Sequence record: PQ724392.1
Strand: one strand, 5' to 3'
DNA from: a phage
Length of the DNA: 64,000 nt
Shown here one piece after another: positions 2,351-36,794 of the stretch. The translations under genes and the position numbers were made by a program. The notes beneath the pieces were generated by a model. The model worked only from the letters and a program-made list of their open reading frames with translations, had not been told where the DNA came from and made no database searches. How positions within the stretch are numbered: the stretch's first letter is position 1; each line of letters opens with the position of its first letter.

Positions 2351-3295
2351 TTAATAAAATTCAGCAATATTTGCAGTTAGTTTAGACAGACCAGACTTAA
2401 CAAAGTAAGGATAAACTTTACTTTTGGCTGGGATAACGTAGTTATTATATCGTTCTAAGATTGAAGCAGATATTTCCGTTGGGATAAAGTCCATATCAAT
2501 CAACAATTGGTTTTCACAGAATCTATTATATTGCTCTTCTGTTAAAAGCGTTTTCAAAACGTCATGGTCGTAATAGTTGAGTGCAATTTGTTCAAGCTCA
2601 GCTGCGCGGGTCGGTGGAGTGCGTTCACCTTCTTCACGAGTGTAATAAAAATCACCGCGAACCTTGATGCTTGACACGTTATCTTTTTTGTCACCTTTAA
2701 CAACCTTTGTCACGCAATCCATAAGAGCATCGCCTGATTTAGTTTTGACATATTTTTTCTGCATCGGTGACCATTGTTTCACCCCAGGGAATTTATGTAA
2801 CTGGGTAAAGTCGCCATCCGAAGAAACAATCATAACCGGATGCCCGAGACCAGTGAGCAACTTCGTTAATACTGCAATATGGTCGTCAGCCTCAATTTTA
2901 TCCATATTCATCACGATGTAAGGCATATGTTTTTCCATTTCATCAATGATAATGTGCATGGCAGCATGTAGGCCTTCCCAATCAAATTGTGACTCTTCAC
3001 GAGCTTTTGCACGGTTTTTCTTATAATAATAAGATTTCGTGCGTCGCCAATAACCATTCTTCGAATTATCAACACAAATAATTGGGACTGTATAACCGAG
3101 CTTTTTAAACTGTACAATGTTTTTTCTGATAGAGTTCAGAACCAGATGTCTGGTCATTGCGGTTGTCACCTTAGGGAAGCCCGCGTCTTTACCGAATTCC
3201 TGGAAGGCTGCTGCCATGATAAGCTGGCTAAAATCGAGTAACAGAAAACCATCTTTTTGACGGTCTTCTTCAGGGAGTAAAAAATCTAAATTCAT
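2351..3295 (-). CDS. rnh: RNase H (5'-3' exonuclease, FEN family)
   Basis: 314-aa ORF; acidic-cluster motifs (VCVDNSK, EADDHIAV, SSDGDF) typical of T4 RNase H / flap endonuclease; position beside gene 34 as in T4. Confidence 0.9.
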   Translation of the reverse strand: MNLDFLLPEEDRQKDGFLLLDFSQLIMAAAFQEFGKDAGFPKVTTAMTRHLVLNSIRKNIVQFKKLGYTVPIICVDNSKNGYWRRTKSYYYKKNRAKAREESQFDWEGLHAAMHIIIDEMEKHMPYIVMNMDKIEADDHIAVLTKLLTGLGHPVMIVSSDGDFTQLHKFPGVKQWSPMQKKYVKTKSGDALMDCVTKVVKGDKKDNVSSIKVRGDFYYTREEGERTPPTRAAELEQIALNYYDHDVLKTLLTEEQYNRFCENQLLIDMDFIPTEISASILERYNNYVIPAKSKVYPYFVKSGLSKLTANIAEFY

Positions 3296-3323
3296 ATGAA
3301 CCTCTGTTCAATTAGTTGACTCG

Positions 3324-3351
3324 ATTATATTAGCATAAAAATTTTAAAGCA
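3324..3351 (-). promoter_or_regulatory. candidate middle promoter for rnh
   Basis: minus strand TTGCTTTA (Mot box) - 12 nt - TAATAT(AAT); overlaps the late promoter of gene 34 on the other strand. Confidence 0.4.
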
Positions 3352-3352
3352 A

Positions 3353-3360
3353 TATAAATA
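3353..3360 (+). promoter_or_regulatory. late promoter (TATAAATA) for genes 34-35
   Basis: exact TATAAATA ~30 nt upstream of the gene 34 ATG. Confidence 0.65.
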
Positions 3361-3391
3361 CACATATACCAAATCAATAAGGATAAAGCAC

Positions 3392-6300
3392 ATGGCCGAT
3401 ATTTTAAAACCAGCATTCAGAGCAACATCCGGTCTCGATGCTGCTGGTGAGAAAGTCATTAATGTCGCAAAAGCTGATTACTCAGTTTTATCAGACGGCG
3501 TTAACGTAGGTTTCTTTATAGAAGAAAACACAGTTCAACAATATGATGCAACACGCGGATACAAAAAGAACTTTGCAGTTATTAATGATAACCGTATTTG
3601 GGTTGCTCAACGTGATATTCCGGCACCAGCTGGAGCATTTACCCCTCAGTATTGGTTAGCAACTCGTACTGACCCTAAATGGGAAACTGTTGCATCTCCA
3701 ACTCGTCAGCTTAGCTCCGGGGAATTTATCGCAGTCGACTCAGCTGCAAGCTTTACCACATTTACCTTACCTCCGAACCCGACTGATGGTGATACCATCG
3801 TTATTAAAGATATCGGCGGTAATACCGGTTATAATGAAATTAAAATCCAGTCAAGCAACGTGCCTGGTCAAGGTAACCAAAAGATTGTTCGCTTTGGTAA
3901 TCAGTATTCAGAAGTTTTAATTACCAAACCATTCTCTTATAACATGCTTATCTTTTCAAACCGCTTATGGCAATTTTGGGAAGCAGGTAACGAAGAACGT
4001 GGTATCAGAGTAGAACCGTCGACCGGACGTTTCCATGCACAAGCTGGCGACTTTATTATGCGTCGTTATACAACTGGTGCACCGATTACTTTCATTCTTC
4101 CTAAGTATGCAAACCAGGGTGATATTGTCAAATCTGTTGATATCGATGGCATGGGGCCAACGTTCCACCTGATGGTTGAAACCTTTGACACCAGTTCCAG
4201 TCTTGGGAAAGCTGGCCAGCATCAAATGGAATTCCGTACCACAGGTGATGGTTTCTTCGTTTATAATGCTACCGAAAAACTCTGGTATGTTTGGGACGGT
4301 GATTTTAAAACTCGTCTTCGCGTTATTCGCGACAGCGTTAAACTTTTACCAAACGAAAGTGTCATTGTATTTGGCGAAGATAACTCAACTCCGGCAACGA
4401 TTAATATCGATTTGCCAACTAATGTTTTGCAAGGCGATATTGTTAAGATTGCGCTGAACTATCTCCGTAAATCGCAGACTGTTAATATAAGAGCTGCTGT
4501 TGGCGATAAGATTGCAACTGACATTAAATTGCTGCAATTCCCTAAACGTTCCGAGTATCCACCAGATACAACTTGGGTGATGGTTGATTCATTGACCTTT
4601 AATGGCAACATCAGTTATACTCCGGTTATTGAATTATCATATGCAGAAGATGCAGTGTCTGGAACAAGTTATTGGGTTGTCGCTCAGAACGTCCCGACTG
4701 TCGAACGAGTTGACTCATTAAATGATTCCACGCGTACACGTCTTGGTGTTATTGCTCTGGCAAACCAGACTCAGGCAAACGTTGACCATGAAAATAACCC
4801 AGAAAAAGAACTCGCAATTACCCCTCAGACTTTAGCCAACCGTGTTGCTAAAGAGAACCAACGAGGCATTGCCAGAATCGCAACGACTGCCCAAGTAAAT
4901 CAGAACAGTGATTTTGCATTTGTTGATGATGTAATTATTTCTCCGAAAAAACTCAATGAACGTACGGCAACAGAAACGAGACGTGGACTCGCAGAACTCG
5001 CCACACAGCAAGAAACCAATGCGGGTGTAGATGATACCACAATTATAACTCCAAAGAAACTGCAAGCTCGCCAGGGCTCAGAATCGCTATCTGGTATTGT
5101 AACTTACGTTTCAACGACTGGTGCAACTCCTGCTGCTTCGCGTGAATTAAATGGTACAAACGTTTATAATAAAAATACGGTTAATCTGGTTGTTTCTCCG
5201 AAAGCTCTTGACCAGTACAAAGCTACTTACACTCAGCAAGGCGCGGTTATTCTTGCGGTTGAAAGTGAAGTAATCGCTGGTACTTCACAATCTGGCTGGG
5301 CAAACGCAGTCGTTACTCCAGAAATGTTGCATCGCAAAACTGCTCTTGATTCCCGTATCGGTTTAATCGAGATTGCTACTCAGGTTGAAACAGATGCAGG
5401 AACCGATTATACCAGAGCTGTGACTCCTAAAACGTTAAATGACCGTAAAGCATCAGAAACGTTAACCGGCATAGCCGAGATTGCTACGCAATCAGAATTT
5501 GATACTGGAACTGATGATACTCGTATCTCAACTCCATTAAAAATTAAAAATAGATTTAATAATACTGCTCGTACTTCTGTTAATGCATTAAGTGGTTTAG
5601 TAGAAACAGGGACGCTCTGGGACCATTATAGCCTGAATATTCTTGAAGCAAATGAGACTCAACGTGGCACAGCAAGATTAGCAACTCAGGGTGAAGTCAA
5701 TACTGGCACTGACGATAAAACAATCGTTACTCCGCTTAAATTGATGTCGAAAAAAGCCACTGAAAACGCCGAAGGTATTGTTCGCATTGCGACAAACGCA
5801 GAAGCAACAGCAGGCACATCAAAAGTCTTGGCCATTAGTCCGTCTGCGCTGAAATATATTGTCCAAACAGAAACAACTTGGGAAGCATCTGAAACACTGC
5901 GTGGATTTGTTCGTTTATCTTCCGGTGCAGCTACTTCGGCCGCAACTACAACGACGGGCGCGGGATTTACATATGCAAATGGTGTGTATACCCCGGACCC
6001 AAGTAAACTGGTTAGCTATGCGAAATCTGGATATGCAGTTTCGCCTTACGAATTAAACCGCGTATTGCAAAACTTCTTACCAATAAATGCGATGGCTGTT
6101 AATGCTGAAAAACTGGATAACCTCGATTCAACCCAGTTTATTCGTCGTGATATTGCTCAGACTGTTGAAGGTGTATTAACCCTTACTAAGCAGACAAATA
6201 TCTCTGCTCCGGTTGTATCGACGAGCACTGCGGTGTTTACTGATGTAACGGCTGGTACTTCGACGTTCGGAACTGTGAATGTTGTTAATGGAACTAACAA

Positions 6301-31795: not shown

Positions 31796-32479
31796 TTATC
31801 GTTTTTTCGGTAAAGATAACGGGTCTGCATCTTCTTCGGAAGGAACTTCATCCAAACCAAGAGCATAGCGCTGGGCATACTTAAGCATCAAAATATCTTT
31901 CGCGCAGTCATGCACCGAATCATGCGCCACAAATCCATCTAAAGTCCCCTTCGGTAATGGAGTTTCACACATCTTACGGACGAGTGATAGGGCTTCAATT
32001 GCCGTCCTGATATCTCGTTGGTTCCAGAATACAACCGGCTCCAGGCCATAGGTATTCAATTCACGCTCGGGAATACCCTCATTGCGCTGTAGGTCACGGA
32101 TAAGGTCAACAAACAACGGGAAGTCAAAAGACATTCCACGACACCACATAAGGCTTTCATATTTGTTAATTCCATTACCATTCAGATAGTCAATCGCCTG
32201 TTGGATACCAGTCAAAGTATCAACATCTTGCGCAGAAGGAGCCAAGTTAACACGGGCTTCTGCTGATTGCTTTTTCCACCAACCCATGGTTGTTGTATCG
32301 AACAGACGCTTACCTTTTTGGTATTCAAGGCTAAACTTGATACGTTTGCCGCGATTAACCAGGGTTTCGAATGATTCCACAATAGCAGGGTCAGATTCGA
32401 ATGTAATCAGAGCCAGGTCAATAACGGCTCCCTTCGAGCCGTTTCCTAGAGTTTCAAAGTCAATAATAGCATCAATCAT
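31796..32479 (-). CDS. dexA: exonuclease A (DexA, DEDDh 3'-5' exonuclease)
   Basis: 227-aa ORF; MIDAIIDFETLG (Exo I motif), HDSVHDCAKD (Exo III-type H/D) and overall match to recalled T4 DexA (227 aa). Confidence 0.85.
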   Translation of the reverse strand: MIDAIIDFETLGNGSKGAVIDLALITFESDPAIVESFETLVNRGKRIKFSLEYQKGKRLFDTTTMGWWKKQSAEARVNLAPSAQDVDTLTGIQQAIDYLNGNGINKYESLMWCRGMSFDFPLFVDLIRDLQRNEGIPERELNTYGLEPVVFWNQRDIRTAIEALSLVRKMCETPLPKGTLDGFVAHDSVHDCAKDILMLKYAQRYALGLDEVPSEEDADPLSLPKKR

Positions 32480-32556
32480 CGCACATCTCTTTTAATTTTT
32501 GAATTTCACCAGCAACCATCGCACATCTCTTTTAATTTCTGAATTTCACCAGCAAC
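32477..32556 (-). repeat. 40-bp tandem direct duplication (2 copies, 39/40 identical) spanning the dexA start codon
   Basis: catcgcacatctcttttaattt(t/c)tgaatttcaccagcaac at 32477-32516 and 32517-32556. Confidence 0.85.
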
Positions 32557-32751
32557 ATAGTCGGAGATAAAAATCCCTGGCTCTTCATTGTTAAAATATT
32601 CAATCGCGGCCATACGTTTCCGAATAAGATTCAGTTCCAGTAAAACATAATTACCCTGCACGACGATAGTCGGATTATCTTCGAAAAATTCAACCGCGTC
32701 CTGAATACCATAGATAAGATTATCTAAATCTTCTTTATGTACTTTATACAT
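32506..32751 (-). CDS. hypothetical protein
   Basis: 81 aa from internal ATG; C-terminal codons lie in a 40-bp tandem duplication that also contains the dexA start. Confidence 0.4.
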   Translation of the reverse strand: MYKVHKEDLDNLIYGIQDAVEFFEDNPTIVVQGNYVLLELNLIRKRMAAIEYFNNEEPGIFISDYVAGEIQKLKEMCDGCW

Positions 32752-34072
32752 AATATGCGTCGTACCTCGCTCGTGTGATTCCAACATAAGCCAACTGGCT
32801 CGCTAATGAAGCTTCGGCCATATGGATGCATGGAGTATAGATGAATGCTTTGTCCACTGAAACGCCTTGGGCCTTGTGGATTGTACTGACCGGAAGAGCA
32901 CGAACTTTCAAGAAGGTCCTGCGCGCTTTCCAGAAGTCTTTCCACTCTGGACGTTTACCAGCGGCTTTCATCTGTTTGTATGTGTCAGCAACTTTCGCCA
33001 GATATGCCTGGAATTTTGGTTGCTGGTCTTCTGGTAAAACTTTAATGCGGTCAACCTGATATTCTTCATCTTCATCAATTGACTCAACTTCCAGGTCCCA
33101 GTAATTAATCACTAACTGGTGCGATTCGCCTTTACAACGGAGAATGGTGGAAGTGTATTTACAATCCTTGATACGAACCAACTGACCATTATTAAAAATG
33201 GTTTCGCTGAATTTCTTACCTTCAAATTCCAGCTCTTTCATGTGCGGCTCTTGCATAACCAGGACTTCATACGGTAAAAATGCTTTATCCGTTTCATATA
33301 GCTTGCGACGAATAATATTGTTCAGTTTTTCAACTGATTTATTCGTGTATGCATACATCCTGTTTTCCATCAACATATCAGCATCTTTTACAATACTGAA
33401 ATAGTTTACCATGAAATCCTTTAAAGCAGTTTGTGAGGTGAAACCTTGCACACCATGACCTTCATACATACAGTCACGGAACCAACCCCCATTACGAATT
33501 TCTGTCGCCACTTCAATGATAGGAGCATTACTTCGCATAACCTCAGTCAGATGAATCTGTTTGAACTTAGGATGCGTAAAGAATGGACTTATCTTTTGTT
33601 GTGTACTTCCTGGGTCAACCGGCTGCAGCTGGTGCATATCACCAATCCCAAGAATAGTACACCATTCAGGAACAGAGTTAAGAATAATCTTAAACAGAGA
33701 CCCGTCATACATACTTGCTTCATCGCAAACCAGAACATTACATTTTGACATGTCAGGCATTTCGCGCTGTTCAAAAACGTTTTGGTCTTCATATGTGGTC
33801 GGGTTAATCTTCAAGATACTATGGATTGTATTCGCTGTTTGACCAGACAATTTAGATAAAACTTTTTTCGCCTGGTGAGTTGGTGCAGCGAGCACAATTC
33901 CCATAACTCCATTACGCACTAAGTGGTCAATGACAAATTTTGTCAGAGTGGTCTTACCTGTGCCAGCTGGACCATTCAGAGTGATACATTCCCCTGAACG
34001 CCGCTGAATAGCTTCAGTGATATAATCAAAAGCTTCTTTTTGTCCTGTGTTCAAGTCTTCAAATTTAATCAT
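32744..34072 (-). CDS. dda: DNA helicase Dda (SF1B)
   Basis: 442-aa ORF; Walker A NGPAGTGKTT, ILAAPTHQAKK, VLVCDEASMYD, and C-terminal KAQGVSVDKAFIYTPCIH....LAYVGITRARYD match recalled T4 Dda. Confidence 0.9.
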   Translation of the reverse strand: MIKFEDLNTGQKEAFDYITEAIQRRSGECITLNGPAGTGKTTLTKFVIDHLVRNGVMGIVLAAPTHQAKKVLSKLSGQTANTIHSILKINPTTYEDQNVFEQREMPDMSKCNVLVCDEASMYDGSLFKIILNSVPEWCTILGIGDMHQLQPVDPGSTQQKISPFFTHPKFKQIHLTEVMRSNAPIIEVATEIRNGGWFRDCMYEGHGVQGFTSQTALKDFMVNYFSIVKDADMLMENRMYAYTNKSVEKLNNIIRRKLYETDKAFLPYEVLVMQEPHMKELEFEGKKFSETIFNNGQLVRIKDCKYTSTILRCKGESHQLVINYWDLEVESIDEDEEYQVDRIKVLPEDQQPKFQAYLAKVADTYKQMKAAGKRPEWKDFWKARRTFLKVRALPVSTIHKAQGVSVDKAFIYTPCIHMAEASLASQLAYVGITRARYDAYYV

Positions 34073-36524: not shown

Positions 36525-36794
36525 CTACTTAAACACTCCAAGTGGAACGCCAAAGACTGCAATGTCTACGGCCATACCAATCGGAGATTGGTATGATGGA
36601 GATTGATATGATGAGTAAGAACTTTTCGATTTTATCGGGGTTTCGACTTTAATTGTCTCGGATTCAGTCTTAAGCCTTTGTAAACGATTAATTTTTTGTT
36701 GCTCGATTTCCTTATGAGCATGTTTACGGTCGATATCCAGCGCCGATGTGGGAATATTTGTTAACCAGTTCATTGTTTCACCCATGGTGCCCAT
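36525..36794 (-). CDS. hypothetical protein with Ser/Tyr-rich tail
   Basis: 89-aa ORF; low-complexity SSYSSYQSPSYQSP. Confidence 0.4.
   Translation of the reverse strand: MGTMGETMNWLTNIPTSALDIDRKHAHKEIEQQKINRLQRLKTESETIKVETPIKSKSSYSSYQSPSYQSPIGMAVDIAVFGVPLGVFK

What the first reader, a model, noticed from the sequence alone, without database searches (positions are those of the whole stretch)
32477..32556. 40-bp tandem duplication placing a copy of the upstream gene's 3' coding end in front of dexA
Two near-identical 40-bp units lie head to tail. The distal copy encodes the last 13 codons of ORF 32506-32751; the proximal copy ends in the dexA ATG, so the dexA initiation region is a duplicate of the neighbour's C-terminal coding sequence. 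This is the signature of a recent slippage or illegitimate-recombination event at a gene boundary. It could also create alternative frames or RNA pairing that couples expression of the two genes.
Basis: seen in the sequence. Interest (0 to 1): 0.45.

Follow-up and report, generated by a model that had tools for sequence, protein, structure and literature searches.

The report
Inherited 40-bp duplication before phage dexA
A real 40-base tandem duplication in a T4-like phage pulls apart two genes that overlap in most relatives; about a third of sequenced relatives share it, both genes stay intact, and it is an ordinary inherited length variant, not a new kind of element.

Summary
Two head-to-tail 40-nt units lie at 32517-32556 and 32477-32516 on the minus strand and differ at one base. 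This is the strongest tandem repeat in the window and is not expected by chance.

The window is a Gaprivervirus (SP18/VR7/VR20 group). In 18 of 28 distinct GenBank genomes there is one copy, and the small DexA.2-family ORF overlaps dexA by 8 nt (ATGATTGA). In 10 of 28 genomes, the window and six metagenome/SRA contigs there are exactly two copies, always with the same joint (GATG|GTTG). So it is neither an assembly artefact nor private to this genome. Five two-copy haplotypes on mosaic backgrounds argue against a recent event.

What the duplication changes:
- The upstream ORF ends ...DGCW instead of ...DD, 26 nt before dexA.
- dexA keeps its native 37 nt of leader, including its weak SD.
- The duplicated SD+ATG opens a 15-codon mini-ORF (MVAGEIQKLKEMCDD*) whose stop overlaps the dexA ATG exactly as the ancestral ORF's stop did.

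No RNA structure, promoter, terminator or Rfam family is involved. Most likely it is a single-origin, tolerated, near-neutral duplication spread by recombination. An effect on DexA dosage is possible but untested.

The parts
32517..32556 (-). Distal repeat copy (copy 1). It encodes VAGEIQKLKEMCD of the DexA.2-family ORF and carries a duplicate of the dexA SD (AAAGAG) and ATG (32519-32517).
32477..32516 (-). Proximal repeat copy (copy 2). Its first 12 nt give the ORF's new tail (G)CW + TGA. The rest is the 26-nt spacer with the dexA SD (32492-32487), ending in the dexA ATG (32479-32477).
32506..32751 (-). DexA.2/DexA.1-family small ORF, 81 aa here with tail ...EMCDGCW (79 aa with tail ...EMCDD in one-copy genomes). 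Its start overlaps the dda stop by 8 nt.
   Evidence: Pfam PF26837
32472..32519 (-). 15-codon mini-ORF MVAGEIQKLKEMCDD* created by the duplication. Its start is the duplicated dexA SD+ATG. Its stop TGA (32474-32472) overlaps the true dexA ATG as ATGATTGA. Its start is overlapped by 14 nt by the main ORF. Translation is not shown.
   Evidence: compare the ancestral arrangement
31796..32479 (-). dexA (exonuclease A), 227 aa, coding sequence unchanged by the duplication.
32744..34072 (-). dda helicase, the upstream gene of the same co-oriented, overlapping gene chain.

Best explanation
This is a genuine, inherited 40-bp tandem duplication. It most likely arose once, by illegitimate recombination or slippage, in an ancestor inside the genus Gaprivervirus, at the point where the DexA.2-family ORF and dexA overlapped by 8 nt (ATGATTGA).

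Shown:
- The duplicated unit spans both the ORF's last 13 codons and dexA's SD and ATG, so both genes survive.
- The ORF only swaps its final D for GCW and now stops 26 nt upstream of dexA.
- dexA keeps an identical leader back to -37.
- The first copy of the SD+ATG now heads a 15-codon mini-ORF that terminates in exactly the ancestral stop/start overlap with dexA.

Inferred:
- Ribosomes can still be delivered to the weak dexA start by termination-reinitiation through this mini-ORF, or through its internal AUG.
- DexA output therefore changes little, and the allele is close to neutral.
- It persists because a 40-bp repeat collapses slowly.
- Frequent recombination in T4-type phages has moved it onto many backgrounds and exchanged SNPs with one-copy alleles.
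For: - The repeat is real and non-random.
- Copy number: 10 of 28 distinct GenBank genomes have two copies and 18 have one. The DGCW-tail protein is on 18 contigs against 71 for the DD tail among the listed cluster members.
- All 11 contigs read that encode a DGCW-tail protein have exactly two copies (10 for the window's 81-aa form P0002, 1 for variant P0008), and 6 of them are metagenome/SRA assemblies.
- The joint GATG|GTTG is identical in all 17 two-copy sequences. The only microhomology is an imperfect (G/A)TTG, read directly. In experimental T4 evolution, independent duplications had different boundaries at 6-10-bp microhomologies (PMC9391042). An identical joint therefore points to a single origin.
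- The five deepest-branching genomes (VR7, VR25, VR26, TH15, TH40) all have one copy.
- Geometry: one-copy ...EMCDD* overlaps dexA; two-copy ...EMCDGCW*; mini-ORF. The tail lies outside the family profile (PHROG match covers residues 1-78).
- The dexA SD is weak, -2.9 kcal/mol. T4 also overlaps dexA.1 with dexA. Coupling is most efficient at small or negative spacing (PMC12548453).
- Mosaicism: 5-8 copy-number changes on the flank trees, and no association with the dexA-side flank, p about 0.49.
Against: - No expression data exist. Whether the mini-ORF is translated and whether DexA level changes is unknown.
- UPEC01 and contig L051 carry the duplication in a DK-13-like background on both sides. 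L051 has the DK-13 variant (TGT) in both copies. Under a single origin this needs a very short conversion tract (under about 80 nt) or inter-copy conversion, and it would fit a second origin equally well.
- A frequency of about 20-35% across continents could also reflect selection rather than drift.
- The direction of exchange is unresolved. M719, with a single CAA copy, could be a collapse product or the donor of the CAA variant.
Confidence: 0.6

Rival explanations
1. It is an adaptive regulatory variant. Uncoupling dexA from the DexA.2-family ORF (8-nt overlap changed to a 26-nt gap), duplicating the initiation region and interposing a mini-ORF changes DexA dosage or timing. Selection, possibly balancing or host-dependent, then maintains both alleles.
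For: - The two-copy allele is at about 20-35% worldwide, on many backgrounds, with 5 haplotypes.
- The dexA SD is weak, so expression should depend on coupling.
- Coupling efficiency falls with spacing (PMC12548453).
- In T4, the dexA initiation region is a RegA-repressed operator (PMC3014915).
Against: - The duplication preserves the leader to -37 and recreates the ancestral stop/start overlap through the mini-ORF, so the predicted change is small.
- There is no accessibility difference.
- No flanking substitutions are fixed with either allele.
- There is no functional data of any kind.
Confidence: 0.22
2. It is a recurrent hotspot. The same 40-bp duplication forms repeatedly and independently in different lineages, and collapses again, because of a local mutational mechanism.
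For: - Copy number needs 5-8 changes on the flank trees.
- L051 has TGT in both copies in a TGT-type (DK-13-like) background, as a fresh duplication there would give.
- UPEC01 is DK-13-like on both sides.
Against: - All 17 two-copy sequences have an identical joint, yet the ends share only an imperfect 3-4-nt microhomology, and no hairpin or repeat would direct the event.
- Independent T4 duplications use different boundaries (PMC9391042).
- No three-copy allele and no other joint was found.
- T4-type recombination needs only short homology patches, under 50 bp (PMC2839356), so mosaicism explains the scatter.
Confidence: 0.1
3. It is a sequencing or assembly artefact, with a single copy in the real genome.
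For: None found. Short tandem repeats can in principle be mis-assembled.
Against: - Two copies appear in 10 GenBank genomes from at least 5 groups and in 6 independent metagenome/SRA assemblies.
- The TH phage project yields both states.
- The copies differ by copy-specific SNPs in five combinations.
- A 40-bp repeat is shorter than a sequencing read.
Confidence: 0.01
4. It is an RNA-level element. The repeat creates RNA pairing, a decoy for an anti-SD segment, or a recoding (bypass/frameshift) signal linking the two genes.
For: In the minimum-free-energy folds, UAUCUC (15 nt upstream of the repeat) pairs with GAGAUG of the first copy. In the one-copy state that GAGAUG is the dexA SD region, so copy 1 could act as a decoy.
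Against: - Fold z-scores are 0.0 to 0.75 against shuffles.
- Opening energy of the dexA initiation region is 6.4-6.5 kcal/mol in all constructs.
- Rfam gives only a 12.6-bit chance hit against a gathering score of 40.
- Read directly, there is no matched take-off/landing codon downstream of the ORF stop, and the ORF frame in copy 2 is not the dexA frame.
Confidence: 0.03

Closest known systems
Spontaneous tandem duplications in T4 formed at short microhomologies (rII duplications; dmd-tifA segmental amplifications, PMC9391042)
   Same: Head-to-tail direct duplication in a T4-type genome. It is presumably made by illegitimate recombination or replication slippage, can be lost again by recombination between the copies, and is polymorphic among close relatives.
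   Different: It is far shorter (40 bp rather than hundreds of bp to kb). It duplicates no whole gene. The ends share only an imperfect 3-4-nt match rather than 6-10 bp. It is stably inherited in nature at exactly two copies rather than being a transient amplification under selection.
Translationally coupled overlapping gene pairs (stop/start overlaps such as ATGA or TAATG; T4 dexA.1-dexA)
   Same: The ancestral one-copy state is a typical 8-nt stop/start overlap in a co-oriented chain (dda / small ORF / dexA). T4 has the equivalent UAAUG overlap at dexA. In the window the same overlap survives between the mini-ORF and dexA.
   Different: In the window the full-length upstream ORF no longer overlaps dexA. 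Coupling, if any, would have to pass through a 15-codon relay ORF. Coupling itself has not been demonstrated for this pair.
PeSL regulatory cassettes of T4-type phages (PMC2839356, PMC4122927)
   Same: Short repeated sequence at a gene boundary in a plastic early-gene region, ending in an SD and the ATG of the downstream gene.
   Different: There is no sigma-70 promoter and no stem-loop in or beside the unit. The two copies are tandem copies of local coding sequence rather than dispersed family members, and they flank no ORF.
RegA translational operator of T4 dexA (AAAAUUUAAUGUUU; PMC3014915)
   Same: Same gene and same position (the dexA initiation region). The unit holds an A-rich AAAAAUUAAAAG tract upstream of AUGs.
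   Different: The AAAAUU tract lies 17 nt from the dexA AUG here, rather than adjacent to it. No binding data exist for this genus. The resemblance is only a lead.

Membership tests
Tandem duplication (slippage / illegitimate recombination) | Two or more head-to-tail copies with no spacer, more similar than chance allows | tested here: met
   39/40 identity, TRF score 154, 0/100 shuffles
Tandem duplication (slippage / illegitimate recombination) | Relatives carry the unduplicated sequence at the same site | tested here: met
   18 of 28 distinct genomes have one copy with otherwise collinear flanks
Tandem duplication (slippage / illegitimate recombination) | Microhomology at the two ends, one copy of it kept at the joint | tested here: inconclusive
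   Only TTG, offset by one base from the joint (GTTG vs ATTG), read. This fits slippage with one terminal mismatch but is not diagnostic.
Translationally coupled overlapping gene pair | Co-oriented genes whose stop and start codons overlap or abut | tested here: met
   One-copy genomes have ATGATTGA. In the window this holds for mini-ORF/dexA but not for the full-length ORF, which has a 26-nt gap.
Translationally coupled overlapping gene pair | Downstream translation depends on upstream translation | not testable with these tools
   Needs reporter fusions or ribosome profiling. The only indirect hint is the weak SD, -2.9 kcal/mol.
PeSL promoter-stem-loop cassette | Sigma-70-like early promoter plus a stable stem-loop in the intergenic unit | tested here: not met
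   No promoter-like or terminator-like site in 32477-32556. Folds are no better than shuffles.
RegA operator | A/U-rich unstructured site overlapping or immediately 5' of the AUG and bound by RegA | tested here: inconclusive
   An A-rich, unstructured leader is present, but the AAAAUU tract is 17 nt from the dexA AUG. Binding cannot be tested here (PMC3014915).
Programmed bypass / frameshift site (T4 gene 60 type) | Matched take-off and landing codons around a stop, with a stem-loop, putting the ribosome into a productive downstream frame | tested here: not met
   There is no TGG landing codon downstream of TGG-TGA, no stem-loop, and the ORF frame in copy 2 differs from the dexA frame (read).
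Known structured RNA family (Rfam) | Match at or above the gathering score | tested here: not met
   The best hit is isrF at 12.6 bits against a gathering score of 40, E = 0.34.

The most novel reading that the evidence does not exclude
The one-copy and two-copy states could be two maintained expression alleles of dexA. The duplication would convert a directly coupled overlap into a tandem-initiation-site arrangement with a 15-codon relay ORF. That would change how much DexA is made, or how it responds to RegA and to translation of the upstream gene. Natural populations would keep both forms because different hosts or temperatures favour different DexA dosage.
Probability: 0.15. Interest if true: 0.5.

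Novelty: new member of a known kind. Interest (0 to 1): 0.27.

Why it matters
The practical value is in annotation and comparison. The 79/81-aa (or 91/93-aa) versions of this small protein, and the overlap-versus-gap geometry at dexA in Gaprivervirus records, come from one 40-bp indel rather than from sequencing errors.

It is also a clean natural example of how a tandem duplication spanning a stop/start overlap can separate two overlapping genes without damaging either one. It offers a ready-made natural pair of alleles for testing how much translational coupling contributes to expression of a weak-SD gene in a T4-type phage. It does not point to a new mechanism.

Tried and rejected
- **Wider scans for the joint:** GATGTGYGATGGTTGCTGG was scanned in IMG/VR and in the metagenome collection. 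Every hit except VR20 was a chance match in unrelated GC-rich DNA, so these scans added nothing and found no three-copy allele.
- **Outgroup junction:** A distant blastn search showed that outside this genus DNA similarity begins exactly at the dexA ATG. The ancestral state therefore had to be inferred within the genus.
- **RNA structure:** Folds, opening energies of isogenic one- and two-copy constructs and Rfam showed no signal.
- **Promoter or terminator in the unit:** None found.
- **Collapse of the duplication:** I first read M719 (single copy carrying the copy-2 variant CAA, with flanks that differ by only 10-11 of 1744 and 26 of 1600 nt from two-copy UPEC07/TH22) as proof of collapse. 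I withdrew that as proof, because M719-like phages could equally be the donors of CAA to copy 2.
- **Selection on the mini-ORF:** All copy-2 variants are synonymous in its frame. They are also the same third-position polymorphisms seen in one-copy coding alleles, so nothing can be concluded.
- **Literature:** Searches found no description of this duplication.

Full report
**The observation**

Read on the minus strand, window 32556-32517 and 32516-32477 are two head-to-tail 40-nt units, GTTGCTGGTGAAATTCA[G/A]AAATTAAAAGAGATGTGCGATG. They differ only at unit position 18. Tandem Repeats Finder gives period 40, 2.1 copies, 95% matches and score 154, the top score among 22 rows for the 64-kb window. 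The pattern occurs exactly twice, and never in 100 dinucleotide-preserving shuffles.

**Genes and genome**

All relevant genes are on the minus strand:

| Gene | Coordinates | Size |
|---|---|---|
| dda | 32744-34072 | 442 aa |
| small ORF | 32506-32751 | 81 aa |
| dexA | 31796-32479 | 227 aa |

- PHROGs assigns dda and dexA as expected.
- DexA aligns end to end with T4 DexA at 65% identity without gaps, which fixes the start codon at 32479-32477.
- The small ORF belongs to the T4 DexA.2/DexA.1 family: 31% identity to T4 DexA.2 (E = 2e-9), 28% to DexA.1, Pfam PF26837 and phrog_5263.
- The repeat unit begins inside the family's conserved C-terminal 'DYV-GEI' motif.
- Megablast places the window in the genus Gaprivervirus (SP18, VR7, VR20 and relatives). 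No database record is identical; the best is 99.4% over 501 nt.

**Copy number in relatives**

- The 34 matching records represent 28 distinct genomes.
- Direct counting gives two copies in 10: TH22, TH55, UPEC07, ECML-359, TH41, MN01, TH57, TH54, UPEC01 and VR20.
- It gives one copy in the other 18, including the type phages SP18 and VR7.
- The two-copy genomes come from Lithuania, USA, Uganda and Bangladesh and from several laboratories. One project (the TH phages) produced both states.
- In the large protein collection, the two-copy protein tail (...DGCW) is on 18 contigs and the one-copy tail (...DD) on 71 among the 15 listed cluster members. Two protein backgrounds carry either tail.
- Eleven contigs that encode a DGCW-tail protein (ten for the window's 81-aa form P0002, one for variant P0008), six of them metagenome or SRA assemblies, all have exactly two copies.
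- No three-copy allele was found. Collection-wide scans for the joint returned only VR20 plus chance hits.
- The duplication is therefore not an artefact and not private to this genome.

**Origin and history**

- All 17 two-copy sequences share the same joint, GATG|GTTG.
- In the one-copy sequence the two ends share only GTTG/ATTG, a 3-nt match with one mismatch beside it (read). This fits a slippage event with a terminal mismatch, but nothing would direct the same event repeatedly.
- In experimental T4 evolution, independent duplications used different boundaries at 6-10-bp microhomologies (PMC9391042). I therefore infer a single origin.
- The five deepest-branching genomes (VR7, VR25, VR26, TH15, TH40) have one copy. 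Outside the genus, DNA similarity starts only at the dexA ATG. One copy with overlap is therefore the inferred ancestral state.
- The allele is not young. There are five two-copy haplotypes, written as positions 9, 18, 36 for copy 1|copy 2: TGC|TAC, TGC|TGT, TGT|TAC, CGC|TGC and TGT|TGT.
- Each variant base also occurs in one-copy alleles.
- Copy number needs 5-8 changes on neighbour-joining trees of the flanks, against about 8.4 for random labels. It is associated only with the long dda-side flank (p about 0.006) and not with the dexA side (p about 0.49). The SNP table shows mosaics throughout.
- T4-type recombination needs only short patches of homology (PMC2839356). Recombination between one- and two-copy genomes, plus occasional collapse, explains the pattern.
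- A second origin in a DK-13-like background (UPEC01, L051) cannot be excluded.

**What the duplication does to the genes (shown)**

- In one-copy genomes the ORF ends ...KEMCDD* and its TGA overlaps the dexA ATG by 8 nt, as ATGATTGA. This mirrors the 8-nt overlap between dda and the ORF, and the UAAUG overlap of dexA.1 and dexA in T4.
- 40 is 13x3+1, so in the window the ORF reads copy 1 normally and then enters copy 2 shifted. It ends ...KEMCDGCW* at 32508-32506, 26 nt before dexA.
- The changed tail lies outside the family profile.
- dexA keeps an identical leader back to -37, including its SD AAAGAG (32492-32487).
- The duplicated SD+ATG at the end of copy 1 (ATG 32519-32517) opens a 15-codon mini-ORF, MVAGEIQKLKEMCDD*. 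Its stop (32474-32472) recreates the ancestral ATGATTGA overlap with dexA. The main ORF overlaps this mini-ORF's start by 14 nt.

**How it most likely works (inferred)**

- The dexA SD is weak: -2.9 kcal/mol against the anti-SD, compared with -12.5 for a perfect SD. T4 has GAGG.
- Coupling is most efficient at small or negative spacing (PMC12548453). The ancestral gene probably relies on termination-reinitiation.
- In the two-copy allele that route can persist through the mini-ORF, or through its in-frame internal AUG at 32486-32484. The net effect on DexA is therefore probably small.
- This would explain why the duplication is tolerated and behaves as a near-neutral length polymorphism.
- An adaptive change in DexA dosage or RegA control remains possible, since T4 dexA is a RegA target (PMC3014915). 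It is untested.

**What it is not**

- The unit contains no promoter-like or terminator-like site.
- Folds of the one- and two-copy leaders are no more stable than shuffles.
- The opening energy of the dexA initiation region is 6.4-6.5 kcal/mol whatever the copy number.
- Rfam gives only a sub-threshold chance hit.
- There is no bypass or frameshift geometry (read).

**Verdict**

It is a real duplication at a gene boundary that creates an alternative short frame, but it is neither recent nor RNA-based. It is an ordinary kind of mutation, seemingly undescribed for this genus. Its interest is modest, mainly as an annotation explanation and as a natural test case for translational coupling.

Noticed in passing
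window 36583-36613 (ORF 36525-36794, minus strand): A 15-bp tandem repeat (TRF score 55) is an in-frame five-codon repeat, SYQSP x2, inside an 89-aa ORF. On the plus strand it looks like repeated SD-ATG motifs, but that is the non-coding strand.
   Followed up: partly
window 32744-32751: The dda stop and the small ORF's start overlap by 8 nt (ATGTATAA), the same overlap length as the ancestral ORF/dexA junction. So dda, the small ORF and dexA formed a chain of 8-nt overlaps before the duplication.
   Followed up: partly
L042 (T4 NC_000866.4) 1144-1389: The RefSeq record names T4 dexA.2 'dextranase'. This looks like a name-similarity annotation error for an 81-aa protein of unknown function.
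   Followed up: no
L015 (phage DCP80, PQ671644.1) 2533-3461: Shortly after dexA the record continues into 'terminase large subunit' and 'tail sheath' genes instead of the motB.1 region, and the genome is only 140,978 bp. This is probably a large deletion or a misassembly in that record.
   Followed up: no
loci L001-L027, about 700-1600 nt downstream of the repeat (beyond dexA): Genomes with few differences (0-23 of 1744 nt) on the dda side differ by about 200 of 1600 nt on the far dexA side (for example UPEC07 vs ECML-359). This points to a sharp mosaic boundary or allelic replacement around the ORF downstream of dexA, which is also annotated with two different starts (2485 vs 2533).
   Followed up: partly
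window 32751 vs 32787: Public records annotate the small ORF with two alternative starts (81/79 aa from the ATG at 32751, 93/91 aa from an upstream ATG at 32787 that lies inside dda). Together with the duplication this yields four protein lengths for one gene in the databases.
   Followed up: partly
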